A stretch of 64,000 nt of DNA from Myxococcota bacterium (lineage in GTDB: Bacteria > Myxococcota_A > UBA9160 > JAFDDA01): positions 3,456,001 through 3,520,000 of the forward strand of contig OZ245817.1 in the NCBI GenBank assembly GCA_965228475.1, given 5' to 3'. Each line of letters opens with the position of its first letter. The stretch's first letter is position 1. The position numbers are program-made. Of the stretch, positions 27,001 through 33,000 are shown one piece after another.

Positions 27001-30000
27001 AGGAGGAGGCTCTCGTCGAACCGGGAGTCCCGCCGCCGGCCGAACGCCCGGCGCCCGGCGCCCTCGCCCGCATGGAGCTCGTCGAGGCCCTTCGCAGCGA
27101 CCTCGCCCAGGCGCGCCATCCCTCGGACGGCGGCGGCCGCGCGTGGCTGGAAGACGGCGGCTCGGCCCGGGCCGGCAAGCCGGGCCGATGGACCTTCGTC
27201 TACGAAGCCGGCGAGCTCGGCATCGCGGTCGGCGGGCAGGTCCTGCTCCAGGTCTCGCCCTTCTGGGGCTGGAGCACGCCGCAGACCCTCGACGCCGACG
27301 GGCGCGGGTACACCGAGGCCACGACCGATGCCCCGGGCGTCACCCTGGAAGCGCGCACCCTCGACGAGCAGCTCCTCGGCATCGCCGTCGGCGGGCGCGC
27401 CCTCGCCGCCGGCGAACGGATCCGCATCCGCTACGGCGCCGGCCCAGCCGGCGCGCGCGCCGACCGCTTCGCCGAGCGCGAGTCTCCCTTCTTCTTCGCC
27501 GTCGACGGCGATGGCGACGGGGTGCGGAAGTTCCTCGTGGACACCCCGAAGGTCGACGTGGCGCCCGGCCCCCCGTCGCAGCTGGCCCTCCATCTCCCGG
27601 CCACGGCGAAGCCCGGCGACGAGGTCGCACTCACGCTCGCGGTGCTCGACGCGGAAGGCAGCGCCGGGACGGACTTCGCCGGCGAGATCCGCTTCGGCGA
27701 CCACGGCGAATGGATCGCTCTCCCGGAGACCGTCACGCTCGGCGCAGCGGACCGCGGCCGCACCCGCGTCACCGTCCGGGTGAGCGCCCCGGGCATCGTC
27801 CGCATCCGGACCGAGGGGCCCGAAGGGCTCGAGGCCATCAGCAACCCGATGCGCGTCTCGCCCGACGCGCCGCGCGTGCTCTTCGGCGAGCTCCACGGAC
27901 ACTCGAACTTCTCCGACGGCACCGGAACCCCCGAGGACTACTACGCCTACGCCGACGAGGTCGCGGGCCTCGACTTCGCCGCGCTGACGGACCACGACCA
28001 CTGGGGCATCCCCTTCCTCGACGCCCGGCCGGACATGCGGGAACGCATCGCCCGCGCGACCGAAGCCGCCCACGCCCCCGGGCGCTTCGCCGCGCTGCAC
28101 GGTTACGAGTGGACGAGCTGGCAGTTCGGCCACCGCCACGTGGTCTACTTCGGAGACCGCTCGCCGATGTATTCCTCCATCGACCCGGCCAGCGATACAC
28201 CCGAAGAACTCTGGGCCCTGCTGCGCGGCAAGCCCGCGCTGACCTTCGCCCACCACTCCGCCGGCGGCCCGATCCCGACGGACTGGAACGTCGCGCCGGA
28301 CCCCGAGCTCGAGCCGCTGACGGAGGTGGCTTCCGTCCACGGCAACAGCGAGGCGAGCGACGCGCCGGCCCCGATCTACCGCGCCGTCGAGGGCAACTGG
28401 GTGCGCAACGCCCTCGACCGCGGCTACCGGCTGGGCTTCGTCGGCGGCAGCGATTCCCACGACGGGCACCCGGGCCTCGCCCACATCGCGAGCGGCTGGA
28501 GCGGCCTCGCGGCGGTCTACGCCGAGGAGGCGACGCGCCCGGCCCTGCGGGAGGCCCTCGCCGACCGCCGCGCCTACGCGACCAACGGCCCGCGCATCCT
28601 GCTCGACGTCCGGCTCGCGGGCCACGCCATGGGCCGCGTCCTCCCCGTGGCCGAACTCGGCGAGAAGCCGCAGCTCGTGGTCGACGTGGTCGGCACGGGC
28701 GTGCTCGACCGCATCGACATCGTGCGCAGCAGCGCGGTGGTGGCGAGCACGGGCGCCGAAGGACGAGCGGACCTGCTCTTCTCCTACCCGGTCTCGGGGC
28801 TGCGCGCGGGCGAGTACCTCTACGTGCGCGCGATCCAGCGCGACGGCGGCGCCGCCTGGTCGAGCCCCTTCTTCCTGGAATGACCGGGCCGGTCCGATGA
28901 CCGAACCGATCGTTTCGGTGCTGCTGCCGGTGCGAGACGCCGAGCGCACCCTCGCCGCGGCCCTGCGAAGCGTCACCCGGCAGACGGAGGAGCGCTTCGA
29001 GTGCGTCGTCGTCGACGACGGCTCCGCGGACGGCTCGATCGAGATCGCCCGCCGCTTCGCCGCCGAGGACGAACGCTTCCGGGTGATCGAACGGCGCGCC
29101 GAAGGCCTGGTCCCCGCCCTGAATGCGGGGCTCGAGGCGTGCCGAGGCCGTTTCGTCGCGCGCATGGACGCCGACGACGTGATGCACCGCTGCCGGCTCG
29201 CCCAGCAGCGCGACGCCCTCGAAGAGGACGCCGGCCTCGCGGCCGTCGGCTGCCACGTCCGCCTGTTTCCGGACGGCGAGGTCGGAGACGGAATGCGCGA
29301 GTACCAGGCCTGGTTGAACGGGTTCCGGGGCGAAGCCGAACTCCGCCGCGACGCCTTCGTCGAGTGCCCCCTCGCCCATCCGACCTGGTTCGGACGCCGC
29401 GCCTGGTTCGAAGCCCACCGCTACCGCGACCGCGGGTGGCCCGAGGACTACGACCTCTTCCTGCGCGCCCTGGCCCGTGGCGACCGCCTGGGCGTCGTCC
29501 CGGAGCCGTTCCTCGCCTGGCGCGTGGGACCAGAGCGCCTCTCGCGAACCCACCCGAGCTACGCGATCGAACGCTTCGTCGCGTGCAAGGCGCACTTCCT
29601 CGCCGAGGGATTCCTCGCGGAGTCGGACGAGTACGTGCTCTGGGGATACGGCGGCACCGGCCGGGCCCTGCGCGCGGCCCTCGAGGCCCACGGCCGGCGG
29701 CCCTCGCACATCGTGGAGGTCCATCCGGGACGCCTCGGCCAGCGCATCCACGGCGCCGAGGTGATCGAACCCGCGGCCCTCCCCGCGCTTCCGCGCCGGC
29801 CGCTGCTCGCGTCGGTCGCCGGCGCCGAGCCGCGGGCCGAAGTCCGGGCGGCCCTCGCGCGGATGGGATTCGAGGAGGGGACCGACTTCCTCAGCGTCGC
29901 CTGACGCGCGCGCCACCGGTGAGATCGAGGTGCTGGTAGAGCGCGCCGTCGCGGAAGCCGAGGCGCCGGTAGTAGGGACGGGTCCCGACGGCCGAGATCA

Positions 30001-33000
30001 CGGCCATGCCCTCGTGCCCCGCGCGGTGCGCGCGCGCCGCCGCCGCAGCGACGAGCCGCCGCCCGAGGCCGCCGTGCTGGGCGTGCTCCTCCGCGCGCTG
30101 CCCCGGCGCCAGGGCCGGACCGTAGACGTGCACCTCGCGCAGGAGTGCGGCGTTCCCGAGCTCCTCGAGCGGCGCGGACTCTCCCGGAAGCGAGAGGCGC
30201 GCGAATCCCACGATGCGATCGGCTCCATCGACGGCCTGGAGGAAGACCTCCGTGCCCGCCGCGCTCGCGTACTCCGTCCGCCGCAGGGAGAGATCCCCGG
30301 CGACGGCGGCACCGCCGATCTCGCGGCTCCGGATGTCGAGACAGCGGCGCCCGCTCGCCGCGAGCGAGCGCTCGGCGACCTCGCGATAGTTCGTGCGCCG
30401 GTTGCCGACGAGGATCTCCTGGGAGGGGATGTCGCGGATGACCCGGGAGAGCCGGCAGTACTCGGGCACGACCGAGAGCGCATCGGTCAGGAGCCCCGTC
30501 AGTTCCTCGTCGCCGTAGGGGCGCCAGCGCCCGGCCGCGTGGTGCGCGACCAGCTCGGTCCCGTCGATCAAGCTGCACGGATAGATCTTGAGCTCGTCCG
30601 GCCGGAGCGCCGGATCCCGGAACAGCTGACGAAGCTCCTGGCGATCGGACGCCGGCGTCGCACCGAGCAGGTTCGGCATCCAGTGGAGCTGCACCTTGAA
30701 CCCGGCGCGCCGAAGCAGCGTCGCGGCACGGCGCGAGCAGGCCGCATCGTGCCCGCGCCGGTTTCGGCGGAGGATCTCGTCGTCGAGGCTCTGGACGCCG
30801 AGCTGGATCTTCGTCGCCCCGAGCTGACGCAGCCGGAGGAGCTCCTCGGCGTCGATCGCGTCCGGACGGGTCTCGAGCACGAGGCCCACGCAGCGCACGG
30901 AGGCGGACTCGTTGCGGCGCTGGGCTTCCCGAAGCGCCTCGAGGGAAGCGGACTCCTCCGCCTCCGGCTGCTCCCGAATTCGCGCGCGGACGACGTCGTT
31001 GTACGCGCCCTCCGTCCCGATCCGGAGGTCCTCGAACCCCGATCGGGCTTCCGTTCGCGGCACGGCCCGCTCGATGACGCCCCAATCGTTCAACGCGTCG
31101 AAGCATCGCTTCACGAACCAACGCTGGTATCCCGCCGGATAGTGCGACCACGTCCCTCCGAGCACGAGGATCTCGGCCTTCTCCACCGGGTGTCCGTTCG
31201 CGTGGAAGGCCCGCAGGCGCTCGAAGGTCTGTTCGTAGGGATCGAAACGATGCGCCTCGGCCCGCTGACAGCCGGGCTCGCTCGCGATGTAGCTCTTCGG
31301 CATGGTCGGATCGTTCGGGCAGAAGATGCAGCGCCCCGGGCACGGGAAGGGCTTCGTGAGCACGGTGACGGGGGTGACGCCGCTGCGCGTGCGAACGGGC
31401 TTGCGCCGCAGACGCCGGAGGAAGACCGCCTCGTCCAGGGCCAGACGGCTCTCGGCGCCGAAGGCCCGGAACCCGGCGATCAGGTCGCTGCGCGAGTAGA
31501 AGCCGCTACCGTCCTTGGGATGACGGCGCAGCAGCGCATCGATCGCCCGAGGCGTCCACTCCTCGAGCTCCTGGAAGGCATCCAGCAGTGCGACGAGGGC
31601 GCTTCGATGGCGCGCGGGGTCGAAGGCTCGCGGTGCGGTCGCCATGGTGGCGGGAAGATAGGGGCTGGGCGATGACCGACGAAACCGCCCACCGCCTGGA
31701 CGCCCTCTGCCGCCGCTTCTACGCGCGCAACGCCGCCGACTTCAGCGCGACGCGGCAGGCGGCCTGGCCGGGCTGGGAACGCTGCCTGCCCTATCTGCTC
31801 CCGAGCGAGCCGGACCCGGGCGGCGAGCCGAGCTGGCGGCTGCTCGACGCGGGCTGCGGGAACGGGCGCCTCGCCGCCTTCCTGGCGGAGCGCTCCCCGG
31901 GCCGGCTCCGGTATCTCGGCGTCGACGCGAGCCCGGAGCTGATCGAGGAAGCGCGCGGCTCGCGGGGAGCGGACGCCCGCTTCGCCGTCGCGGACCTGGT
32001 GACGCTCGACCCCGCCGGGCTCGGTGAGGCGAGCTTCGACGCGATCGCCCTCTTCGCCGTCCTGCACCACGTGGCGGGGCGCGAGCGCCGGGAGGCGCTG
32101 CTCGCGCGGCTCGCGGGTGCGCTCGAACCCGGCGGACACCTCGTCGCGACCGTGTGGCGCGCCGACGCCTTCGCGCGCTTCCGCGACAAGATCGTTCCGT
32201 GGGAATCGTGCGAGGCACGGACCGGCATCCGGGTGAGCCCGGAGGAGGTCGAACCCGGCGACGTCCTGCTCCCCTGGAAACACGACCCGCGCGCGCTGCG
32301 CTACTGCCACTTCCCGGACGAGGACGAGGCCAATGCGCTGGCCCGCGCAGCGGGCCTGCCCCTGCGCGAAGCCTTCGACGCCGACGGGCGCGAGGGCGCG
32401 CTCAACCGCTACTGGGTGTTGGGACCCCGCTAGTCCTGGAGTGCCCGCAGGACTTCCGCCTCGTAGGCCTCGAGCGAGTCGTACATGCGGAAGGGAGCGC
32501 CGGTCGCCGAGCGCTCGTCGGGCATCGGCAGCGCCCCGCTCTTGGCGAGCAGGTCCGCCAGCCACTCCTTCAGCGCGGCCGAGCCGCCCGAAGCGTCGGG
32601 CACGAGCTTGCGCGGATCGAACCGGTCGCTGCGGAAGCGGACGATCTTGAGCGGCTGACCGTCGTCGGCGAGCCAGTTCGTCAGCAGGTCGATCAACACC
32701 ACGGGCTTGGGCTTCAAACCGCGCACGCCCGCCACGGCGATGGCGTCGATGCGTTCGAGGCCGAGCGTCGCCTTGCCACGCTCCCCGACGTCGACGACCA
32801 GCGCCTCGGCGTTCAGGCTCACGGGCATCGCATCCATGCGCTTCAACGGTCGGCGCGGGGGCGACGGCGCACCCGCATCCTCTTCCAACGGCTCGGGCGT
32901 CAGCGCGACGAGCGGTTCCGGCTCGGGAGCCGCGACGGGTTCGGGCCGCTCCGGCTCCGCGGGCTCGGCGACGATCGGCTCGGGGAGCTCGAGCGAGGCC

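What a model noticed while it worked through the whole genome (the two positions that open the first line are those of the whole stretch)
29891..32433. Elp3 + Trm9-like pair replaces MnmE/MnmG: eukaryote/archaeal-type wobble-uridine modification in a Gram-negative order
The genome has no MnmE or MnmG but encodes a full Elp3 (g03113) head-to-head with a Trm9-like methyltransferase (g03114), and keeps MnmA and a Trm112 homologue (g03053). This predicts the archaeal/eukaryotic route U34 -> cm5U -> mcm5(s2)U in a free-living bacterium; the same Elp3-Trm9 gene pair recurs in Chloroflexota, Patescibacteria and Acidobacteriota.
Evidence so far: g03113 scores 446 on TIGR01211 (cut 350), with the Cys cluster motif and KAT motifs. 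MnmG: 0 of 61 order genomes; no MnmE family here. Elp3: 35 of 61; the methyltransferase lies directly beside it in 29 of 30 loci, the 30th ending at the contig edge. Best Swiss-Prot hit of g03114 is Haloferax Trm9; a 21-sequence profile has yeast Trm9 (5cm2_Z, E 3e-14) as its only PDB hit at 1e-12, aligning the N-terminal TRxxxWP and the HH motif. In a 31-genome phylum sample none of the 17 with MnmG has Elp3 and all 5 with Elp3 lack MnmG. 48 of the 80 best g03114 relatives in GTDB contigs have Elp3 within 2.5 kb. PMC7663514 (passages) names only Dehalococcoides for bacterial Elp3; PMC5372719 (passages) stat [...]
(Added by a program. Inside this text positions count along the whole contig: contig position 3,456,001 is position 1 of the stretch shown here. 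"Call 12" and the like, gene names such as g00115 and contig names such as C1 are that model's own, and its searches are not shown. The text may have been shortened before it was handed on; [...] marks where a part breaks off. The agent that wrote the report below was given it as the finding of a first reader that could run no searches.)

Follow-up and report, generated by a model that had tools for sequence, protein, structure and literature searches.

The report
Bacterial Elp3-Trm9 tRNA wobble pathway
This uncultured bacterium lacks the usual bacterial enzymes that modify the wobble base of tRNA and instead carries a side-by-side gene pair resembling the archaeal and eukaryotic enzymes Elp3 and Trm9, which suggests that several bacterial lineages tune translation the eukaryotic way, although no modified base has been measured.

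Summary
Confirmed. The window holds an intact Elp3 (29891-31645, minus strand; TIGR01211 446 bits, cut-off 350) and, 26 bp away and divergent, a 253-aa methyltransferase (31672-32433). The genome has MnmA but no MnmE or MnmG. In 121 genomes of the order MnmG is found in 0, MnmA in 112, Elp3 in 72 and the methyltransferase in 73; both are in 71, adjacent and divergent in 69. The methyltransferase keeps 9 of 10 mapped Trm9 active-site residues (Tyr243 is Cys); 22 weaker paralogues keep at most 4 of the 10 positions scored. The pair recurs in Chloroflexota, Patescibacteria and Acidobacteriota; 0 of 50 carriers tested have MnmG. Best reading: U34 to cm5U to mcm5U, with MnmA adding s2 (about 0.75; inferred, no nucleoside measured). 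'Replaces' is too strong: the pair occurs only where MnmG is missing, but 47 of 121 order genomes, 46 of 151 phylum genomes and 14 of 15 MnmG-less Acidobacteriota show neither system. The Trm112 link is weak. New: this genome also lacks TadA and tRNA-Arg(ACG) and has an archaeal-type anticodon set. Known chemistry in a new domain; I found no report of a bacterial Trm9 in the library searched.

The parts
29891..31645 (-). Elp3, radical-SAM plus acetyltransferase tRNA U34 carboxymethyltransferase, 584 aa; Cys102/106/109 cluster motif, Lys156, Lys317, Glu504, Tyr558; 81-residue N-terminal extension and a 49-residue insertion relative to the Dehalococcoides enzyme
   Evidence: TIGR01211 446/350; alignment to 5l7j; residues read; conservation in 81 homologues
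31646..31671 (.). 26-bp gap between the two divergent start codons; too short for two promoters, so promoters probably lie inside the opposite gene (inference)
   Evidence: sequence; no sigma-70-like site found in 31300-32000; divergent layout in 69 of 69 adjacent order genomes and 52 of 52 GTDB loci with Elp3 nearby
31672..32433 (+). Trm9-like class I SAM carboxyl methyltransferase, 253 aa; Tyr17, Arg28, Asp85, His132, His133, Trp162, Trp202, Arg210, Asn245 match Trm9 active-site residues; Cys212 stands where Trm9 has Tyr243
   Evidence: profile-to-5cm2_Z alignments, residue list of PMC4678810, conservation, bridge through virus-encoded Trm9-like proteins, model pLDDT 92

Best explanation
A two-gene tRNA wobble-uridine module. 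Step 1 (family shown, activity inferred): Elp3 uses SAM radical chemistry and acetyl-CoA/acetate to put a carboxymethyl group on C5 of U34, giving cm5U. Step 2 (inferred from residues and linkage): the divergent Trm9-like enzyme transfers a methyl from SAM to that carboxyl, giving mcm5U. Step 3 (inferred from presence): bacterial MnmA adds the 2-thio group on Lys, Glu and Gln tRNAs, giving mcm5s2U, a hybrid of archaeal/eukaryotic C5 chemistry and bacterial thiolation. The module supplies the C5 side chain in lineages that have lost MnmE/MnmG; it is optional there, since many MnmG-less relatives lack it. It probably reached this order by horizontal transfer after or around the class-wide loss of MnmG (inference).
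For: Elp3 above cut-off with Lys77/Lys193/Glu386/Tyr441 equivalents kept: 81, 81, 80 and 71 of 81 homologues. Methyltransferase: Y17, F24, R28, H133, W162, R210 invariant in 67 of 67 homologues, H132 63, W202 64, D85 64, N245 58; these align to Y. lipolytica Trm9 R40, D83, H126, H127, W156, W179, R192 and, through a virus-encoded Trm9-like protein, N222; Y17 matches Trm9 Y29 by spacing from the Arg and. Two positions dispensable in yeast (H24, K31) are not kept. 22 weaker paralogues in the genome keep at most 4 of the 10 positions scored. Co-occurrence 71 of the 74 order genomes with either gene, adjacent in 69; 75 of 80 GTDB carriers have Elp3. MnmG 0 of 121 against MnmA 112 of 121; 0 of 50 carriers, among them 12 titled Acidobacteriota, a phylum where 84 of 101 have MnmG. 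trmB lies just downstream of the methyltransferase in 3 of 80 loci. Haloferax Elp3/Trm9 gives mcm5U in vivo (PMC6144793).
Against: No nucleoside, expression or activity data. Trm9 Tyr243, whose loss cuts yeast activity about tenfold, is Cys in 55 of 67 and never Tyr. Fold searches do not single out Trm9: rank 26 in both, Z 17.3 against 20.4 for the best; the single sequence ranks it 16th; the 67-row profile ranks a two-domain plant methyltransferase just above it by whole-sequence E. Three phylum genomes have Elp3 without this methyltransferase. 47 of 121 order genomes, among them the one same-genus genome (89% complete), show neither gene. Genomes are related, so the counts are not independent; about five lineages stand behind the exclusion pattern.
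Confidence: 0.75

Rival explanations
1. Elp3 makes cm5U and the methyltransferase acts on it, but the final base is not plain mcm5(s2)U or sits on a different tRNA set, for example family-box tRNAs such as Arg(UCG), while Lys/Glu/Gln tRNAs keep only s2U as in pair-less relatives.
For: Tyr243 to Cys change and a roughly 15-30 residue insertion after Trp162; the genome lacks TadA and tRNA-Arg(ACG) and has Arg(UCG); Haloferax Arg(UCG), Gly(UCC) and Leu(UAG) carry U34 modifications (PMC6144793); 112 of 121 order genomes keep MnmA with or without the pair.
Against: The carboxylate- and uracil-contacting residues are kept; no conserved third enzyme among the recurring neighbours; TadA loss does not track Elp3.
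Confidence: 0.13
2. Elp3 modifies tRNA on its own (cm5U, or ncm5U after an unknown amidation) and the neighbouring methyltransferase methylates another carboxylate substrate; the linkage is only co-transfer.
For: Elp3 without this methyltransferase in G220, G241, G257; fold searches rank other class I methyltransferases higher.
Against: Divergent linkage kept across four phyla at 28-49% identity, and 75 of 80 carriers have Elp3 even where unlinked; residues specific to the Trm9 site are invariant; the next relatives in viral contigs are Trm9-like proteins.
Confidence: 0.08
3. The pair acts on something other than host tRNA (a protein, another RNA or a small molecule), and its exclusion with MnmG is a coincidence of ancestry.
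For: Only about five independent lineages; MnmG loss is common without the pair.
Against: Bacterial, archaeal and yeast Elp3 are triggered by tRNA, not peptides (PMC6367351); single copy in nearly all carriers; no close relative on plasmids or viral contigs.
Confidence: 0.04

Closest known systems
Dehalococcoides mccartyi Elp3 (PDB 5l7j; TIGR01211)
   Same: Bacterial stand-alone Elp3; cluster motif and Lys77, Lys193, Glu386, His388, Tyr441 kept.
   Different: This one has an 81-residue N-terminal extension (absent in DmcElp3, where its lack goes with weak tRNA binding; PMC6367351 passages), a 49-residue insertion, only one Cys of the DmcElp3 linker motif, and a linked methyltransferase. No Trm9 partner is described for Dehalococcoides in the passages read.
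Archaeal Elp3 + Trm9-Trm112 (Haloferax volcanii; clustered genes in Sulfolobus)
   Same: Stand-alone Elp3 with a Trm9-type methyltransferase; gene clustering is reported for Sulfolobus and mcm5U was shown in Haloferax (PMC6144793 passages).
   Different: Host is a bacterium; thiolation by MnmA rather than a Tuc1/Ncs6-type enzyme; Trm112 need unclear. No archaeal Trm9 sequence was available here for direct comparison.
Yeast Trm9-Trm112 / human ALKBH8 methyltransferase domain (PDB 5cm2)
   Same: TRxxxW, HH, W, W, R and N active-site residues; 28% identity over 171 structurally aligned residues, the highest identity among the 50 rows listed.
   Different: Tyr243 is Cys or Val; insertion after Trp162; no Elongator subunits known to be involved; the bacterial proteins form their own clade, apart from virus-encoded Trm9-like proteins (SH-aLRT 99, quick tree).
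Bacterial MnmE/MnmG route to (c)mnm5s2U34
   Same: Same position, C5 of U34, and same thiolase MnmA.
   Different: Unrelated enzymes and a different side chain; MnmG not found in 121 of 121 order genomes, MnmE not found in this genome.

Membership tests
Elp3 (TIGR01211) | score above the curated cut-off over both domains | tested here: met
   446.2 against 350, model 50-517 of 522
Elp3 (TIGR01211) | radical-SAM CxxxCxxC motif | tested here: met
   Cys102, Cys106, Cys109; the motif was a selection rule, so its 81 of 81 there is not independent
Elp3 (TIGR01211) | acetyl-CoA site residues K77, K193, E386, Y441 of DmcElp3 | tested here: met
   K156, K317, E504, Y558 by the alignment; kept in 81, 81, 80, 71 of 81; residue list from PMC6367351
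Elp3 (TIGR01211) | forms cm5U34 on tRNA | not testable with these tools
   needs an enzyme assay
Trm9 / ALKBH8 methyltransferase | carboxylate-positioning Arg29 and His116, with His115 | tested here: met
   R28 67/67, H133 67/67, H132 63/67
Trm9 / ALKBH8 methyltransferase | SAM-binding Asp72; Trp145, Trp168, Arg241, Asn271, Tyr18 | tested here: met
   D85 64/67, W162 67/67, W202 64/67, R210 67/67, N245 58/67, Y17 67/67; mapping
Trm9 / ALKBH8 methyltransferase | Tyr243 (tenfold activity loss when mutated) | tested here: not met
   Cys 55, Val 11, Ala 1 of 67; so filed as Trm9-like, not as a member of eukaryotic Trm9
Trm9 / ALKBH8 methyltransferase | closest solved relative by sequence profile and fold | tested here: inconclusive
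   rank 1 with the 28-row profile, E 1.2e-14 against 1.1e-10 next; rank 2 by whole sequence but best single domain with the 67-row profile; rank 26 by Foldseek and VIA-align (5cm2 is N-terminally truncated)
Trm9 / ALKBH8 methyltransferase | obligate complex with Trm112 | tested here: inconclusive
   complex score 0.50, best control 0.00, weak support: at 0.60 or under the mark was passed by 18 of 157 solved and 2 of 215 mismatched pairs; runs share at least 48% of contacts, partner pLDDT at least 85; a like complex is solved, so the pass may be from memory. Trm112 not found in 10 of 13 small carriers
Trm9 / ALKBH8 methyltransferase | methylates cm5U34 to mcm5U34 | not testable with these tools
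   needs an assay or nucleoside LC-MS
non-orthologous replacement of MnmE/MnmG | never co-occurs with MnmG | tested here: met
   0 of 23 full Elp3 genomes in the phylum sample; 0 of 50 carriers; 0 of 5 MnmG-positive Acidobacteriota have Elp3
non-orthologous replacement of MnmE/MnmG | present wherever MnmG is missing | tested here: not met
   47 of 121 order, 46 of 151 phylum, 14 of 15 Acidobacteriota genomes show neither

The most novel reading that the evidence does not exclude
A widespread, unrecognised bacterial branch of the Elp3-Trm9 pathway (about 1,900 clusters at 50% identity score E<1e-30) makes mcm5s2U, so far regarded as a eukaryotic/archaeal base, in Patescibacteria, Anaerolineae, some Acidobacteriota and this order; here it comes with loss of TadA and an archaeal-type 46-tRNA set, so that a bacterium decodes the wobble position almost as an archaeon does, and it gives bacterial Trm112 a first defined partner. 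Large MnmG-less groups without the pair would then live on s2U alone or hide a third route.
Probability: 0.5. Interest if true: 0.8.

Novelty: new variant of a known kind. Interest (0 to 1): 0.66.

Why it matters
Reviews read here describe mnm5-type U34 as the bacterial and mcm5-type as the eukaryotic solution (PMC5400242), bacterial Elp3 as confined to Dehalococcoides with no direct evidence of its product (PMC7663514), and state that no Trm112-partner methyltransferases were detectable in bacterial genomes (PMC5372719). The pair contradicts the last two statements at the sequence level and makes the open question, which base bacterial Elp3 makes in vivo, directly testable: two small genes can be expressed in an E. 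coli mnmE/mnmG deletion, and Anaerolineae relatives may be culturable. A two-gene bacterial route to mcm5(s2)U would also be a simple model for Elongator/ALKBH8 chemistry and a tool for making mcm5-modified tRNA. Automatic JGI annotation already names some members TRM9, so the homology is not invisible; the linkage and the exclusion with MnmG are what is new.

Tried and rejected
Fusion of the methyltransferase to TrmB in L121 (574 aa): rejected as a frameshift in that record, since the normal C-terminal motif continues in another frame; only adjacency to trmB in 3 of 80 loci stands. Carriers titled Spirochaetota, Pseudomonadales or Fermentibacteria: dropped as independent lineages; G179 ('Spirochaetales') has the same coordinates as order genome G027, the 'Pseudomonadales' genomes are 0.8-1.5 Mb and two of four group with Patescibacteria rows. 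Trm112 presence as support: rejected, it does not track Elp3. A conserved third pathway gene: none among 22 representatives of the most recurrent neighbour clusters; named ones are DUF4328, ClpB, ABC, helicase, galactokinase, SDR and others, 10 had no Pfam match and several of these are wrong-frame ORFs. Recent transfer signal: GC 71.5-73.8% across 29000-32999, like the flanks. Mobile carriage: no close relative in viral contigs or plasmids. Metagenome scan with the single protein gave 4 loci, none with Elp3 nearby. Promoter scan: 0 found, 0 expected. Expression: no RNA holder listed. Earlier scan notes: none found. PMC10531406 gave no passage on MnmG absence. The careful tree did not finish; the quick tree is used.
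Full report
Observation. The minus-strand ORF 29891-31645 (584 aa) scores 446.2 on TIGR01211 against a cut-off of 350 and aligns best with Dehalococcoides Elp3 (5l7j, E 2e-104), then archaeal and eukaryotic Elp3. The plus-strand gene starts at ATG 31672, 26 bp from the Elp3 ATG, ends at 32433 and encodes a 253-aa class I methyltransferase; that exact protein is in the public collection. 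A public contig covers 28500-33500 without a difference, though it may be the source sample. The flanking glycosyltransferase (28897-29904) and rhomboid-domain gene (32430-35171) overlap the 3' ends and are not among the recurring neighbours in relatives.

Genome context. G000 is one contig, 96% complete. MnmG's best match is 40 bits (cut-off 525) and MnmE's 92 bits on the GTPase part only (cut-off 253), while 9 of 14 control genomes pass each cut-off. MnmA passes at 333 bits. A Trm112-like protein of 86 aa lies about 75 kb away. CmoB and SelU are not found over cut-off. Same-order records are titled Myxococcota or Deltaproteobacteria; that this is the UBA9160 lineage is my recall, not a tool result.

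Elp3 anatomy. Cys102/106/109 form the cluster motif, and the four acetyl-CoA-site residues named in PMC6367351 (passages), K77, K193, E386 and Y441, map to K156, K317, E504 and Y558; they are kept in 81, 81, 80 and 71 of 81 homologues. Unlike DmcElp3 the protein has an 81-residue N-terminal extension (14 Lys/Arg, 11 Asp/Glu) and a 49-residue insertion; 17 of 81 homologues lack such an insertion.

Methyltransferase anatomy. PMC4678810 (passages with its Table 2) lists yeast Trm9 residues needed for activity (R29, D72, H116, W145, W168, R241, Y243, N271), one partly needed (H115), one modelled at the carboxylate (Y18), and dispensable ones (H24, K31, others). Counting along the HMMER alignment of a 67-row profile to Y. 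lipolytica Trm9, R28, D85, H132, H133, W162, W202 and R210 fall on R40, D83, H126, H127, W156, W179 and R192. N245 maps to N222 through a virus-encoded protein whose only PDB hit at 1e-8 is 5cm2 (E 2e-26) and a profile-profile alignment (probability 99.9); Y17 maps by the same alignment and by its spacing from the Arg. In 67 homologues Y17, R28, H133, W162 and R210 are invariant, D85 and W202 are in 64, H132 in 63, N245 in 58. The exception is Y243, which is Cys in 55, Val in 11 and Ala in 1. As a control, 22 weaker profile matches in the same genome keep at most 4 of ten scored positions against 10 for this protein (the ten include F24 and leave out the Y243 column, and local alignment leaves many of their columns empty). 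Against this, structure searches with a pLDDT 92 model put Trm9 at rank 26 (Z 17.3, rmsd 2.7, 171 aligned; best 3e23 Z 20.4, rmsd 2.5, 191 aligned); 3e23 is the protein that PMC4678810 calls Trm9's closest structural homologue. The single sequence ranks 5cm2 16th, the 28-row profile first. I file it as Trm9-like: it most likely works like Trm9, but one listed residue fails.

Distribution in the order. Of 121 genomes, MnmG 0, MnmA 112, Elp3 67 over cut-off plus 5 with strong fragments, methyltransferase 73 (53 of the 78 high-quality genomes). Both genes are in 71; in 69 they are within 2.5 kb and always divergent, and in the other two Elp3 lies near a contig end; 47 show neither, including families f4 (0 of 14) and f7 (0 of 17) and the one same-genus genome (89% complete).

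Distribution beyond. Of the 80 best GTDB loci (a capped scan: 600 stretches, 466 confirmed, 80 kept), 52 have Elp3 within 2.5 kb, all divergent; 23 of the other 28 genomes have it elsewhere. MnmG was sought in 50 of these 80 genomes and found in none. In a 151-genome phylum sample, 23 have full Elp3, 82 have MnmG, none both and 46 neither; G227 has MnmG and only a 92-bit partial Elp3-like match. Four Elp3 genomes lie outside the order; one has the methyltransferase 1.5 kb away, three lack it. In the phylum of G163 (titled Acidobacteriota) 84 of 101 have MnmG (two of the 84 are unpublished genomes), while 0 of 12 carriers so titled do. But only 1 of 15 MnmG-less genomes tested there (15 of the 16 others) has Elp3, and 0 of 5 MnmG-positive ones. 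So the pair implies absence of MnmG, not the reverse. Record titles are unreliable: one 'Spirochaetales' carrier is an order genome. About five independent lineages remain: this order, one other family of the phylum, Anaerolineae, Patescibacteria and Acidobacteriota. The family is large: 1,920 representatives at E<1e-30; 9 of the 120 best hits listed carry JGI's name 'tRNA (uracil-5-)-methyltransferase TRM9'.

History. In a quick tree of 114 rows the 94 bacterial proteins form one side of a branch against 20 viral Trm9-like proteins (SH-aLRT 99), and a supported subgroup (98) joins this order, Acidobacteriota and 14 Chloroflexota rows, with other Chloroflexota and Patescibacteria outside. That fits an old module in Chloroflexota/Patescibacteria passed on to MnmG-less lineages, but no archaeal or eukaryotic sequences were in the tree, no clade test was run, and the donor is not shown. 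The four sampled genomes of the class outside the order lack both systems, which suggests MnmG loss came first (inference).

Trm112. It is found at a loose threshold in 107 of 121 order genomes, with or without Elp3, and was not found in 10 of 13 small Patescibacteria-type carriers (incomplete genomes). A predicted complex scored 0.50 against 0.00 for the best control: weak support, passed at this level by 18 of 157 solved and 2 of 215 mismatched pairs, with at least 48% shared contacts and partner pLDDT at least 85, and possibly from memory of the solved Trm9-Trm112 complex. The need for Trm112 is open.

A further feature. ARAGORN finds no tRNA-Arg(ACG) but Arg(GCG), (UCG) and (CCG), and G, U and C anticodons in all eight family boxes: 44 anticodon types with three CAU tRNAs, plus SeC, the pattern PMC6000648 (passages) describes for archaea. 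TadA is not found (52 bits, cut-off 150); it is in 1 of 28 sampled genomes of the class and 119 of 123 of the rest of the phylum. This loss is class-wide and does not track Elp3, so it is context, not proof; it does mean Arg(UCG) is a plausible extra substrate.

Mechanism. Shown: two intact genes, family membership of Elp3, Trm9-type active site, tight linkage, absence of MnmE/MnmG here, presence of MnmA. Inferred: Elp3 makes cm5U34 (about 0.92), the methyltransferase esterifies it (about 0.82), and the cell's end products are mcm5U and mcm5s2U (about 0.75). Rivals: a different end product or tRNA set (0.13), an unrelated methyl acceptor (0.08), a non-tRNA role (0.04).

What is known. [quoted passage not shown] Ten searches listed no paper on a bacterial Trm9 or a bacterial Elp3-Trm9 pair; 'bacterial trm9' had 0 occurrences in the 21 papers listed, and one search was swamped by taxonomy papers. 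I did not read Selvadurai 2014 or Glatt 2016; I recall, unverified, that Elp3-bearing bacteria lacking MnmE/MnmG were noted there, so the Elp3 half of the exclusion may be in print. Subscription papers and supplements were not seen.

Verdict. A real, well-supported gene pair: known chemistry in a domain where the second enzyme was said to be missing, hybrid with bacterial MnmA, and testable with two genes. New variant of a known kind; interest 0.66.

Noticed in passing
G000 whole genome (tRNA genes at C1:129965, 452177, 1920004): No tRNA-Arg(ACG) and no TadA; Arg GCG/UCG/CCG and a full G/U/C anticodon set like archaea. TadA in 1 of 28 class genomes against 119 of 123 in the rest of the phylum.
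   Followed up: partly
phylum sample, families f13, f15, f26, f31; order families f4, f7; 14 Acidobacteriota genomes: Large groups show neither MnmG nor Elp3: s2U alone or an unknown third route to C5 modification.
   Followed up: no
L092:4875-5441, L106:5611-6180, L121:4766-5335: trmB (tRNA m7G46 methyltransferase, PF02390) just downstream of the Trm9-like gene in three Chloroflexota loci; the apparent fusion in L121 is a frameshift.
   Followed up: yes
L181:2-1063 and 3974-4645; L250:5953-7440: A 512-kb viral contig carries Elp3 about 3 kb from a Trm9-like gene; another has Elp3 near a weaker methyltransferase match; many giant-virus-labelled contigs encode Trm9-like proteins.
   Followed up: partly
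G220 (L165), G241, G257 (L166): Full Elp3 without MnmG and without this methyltransferase family, in genomes that keep TadA: candidates for a different end product such as ncm5U.
   Followed up: partly
G119:C20 and G119:C1: Two copies of the Elp3-methyltransferase pair in one genome (5% contamination), possibly a binning duplicate.
   Followed up: no
window 31646-31671: Only 26 bp between divergent start codons, so each promoter probably lies within the other gene.
   Followed up: partly
window 32430-35171 (-): 913-aa protein with a rhomboid domain (172-326) followed by a long acidic, proline-rich region.
   Followed up: no
G000 C1:1811296-1811378: A tRNA-like fragment with a T-loop and CCA end but no recognisable D-arm, 2 kb after tRNA-Asp; possibly an integration-site remnant.
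   Followed up: no
L044:608-1633 and related loci: A DUF4328 gene is the commonest neighbour of the pair in the order (25 loci, some being the same genome fetched twice); absent beside the pair in this window.
   Followed up: no
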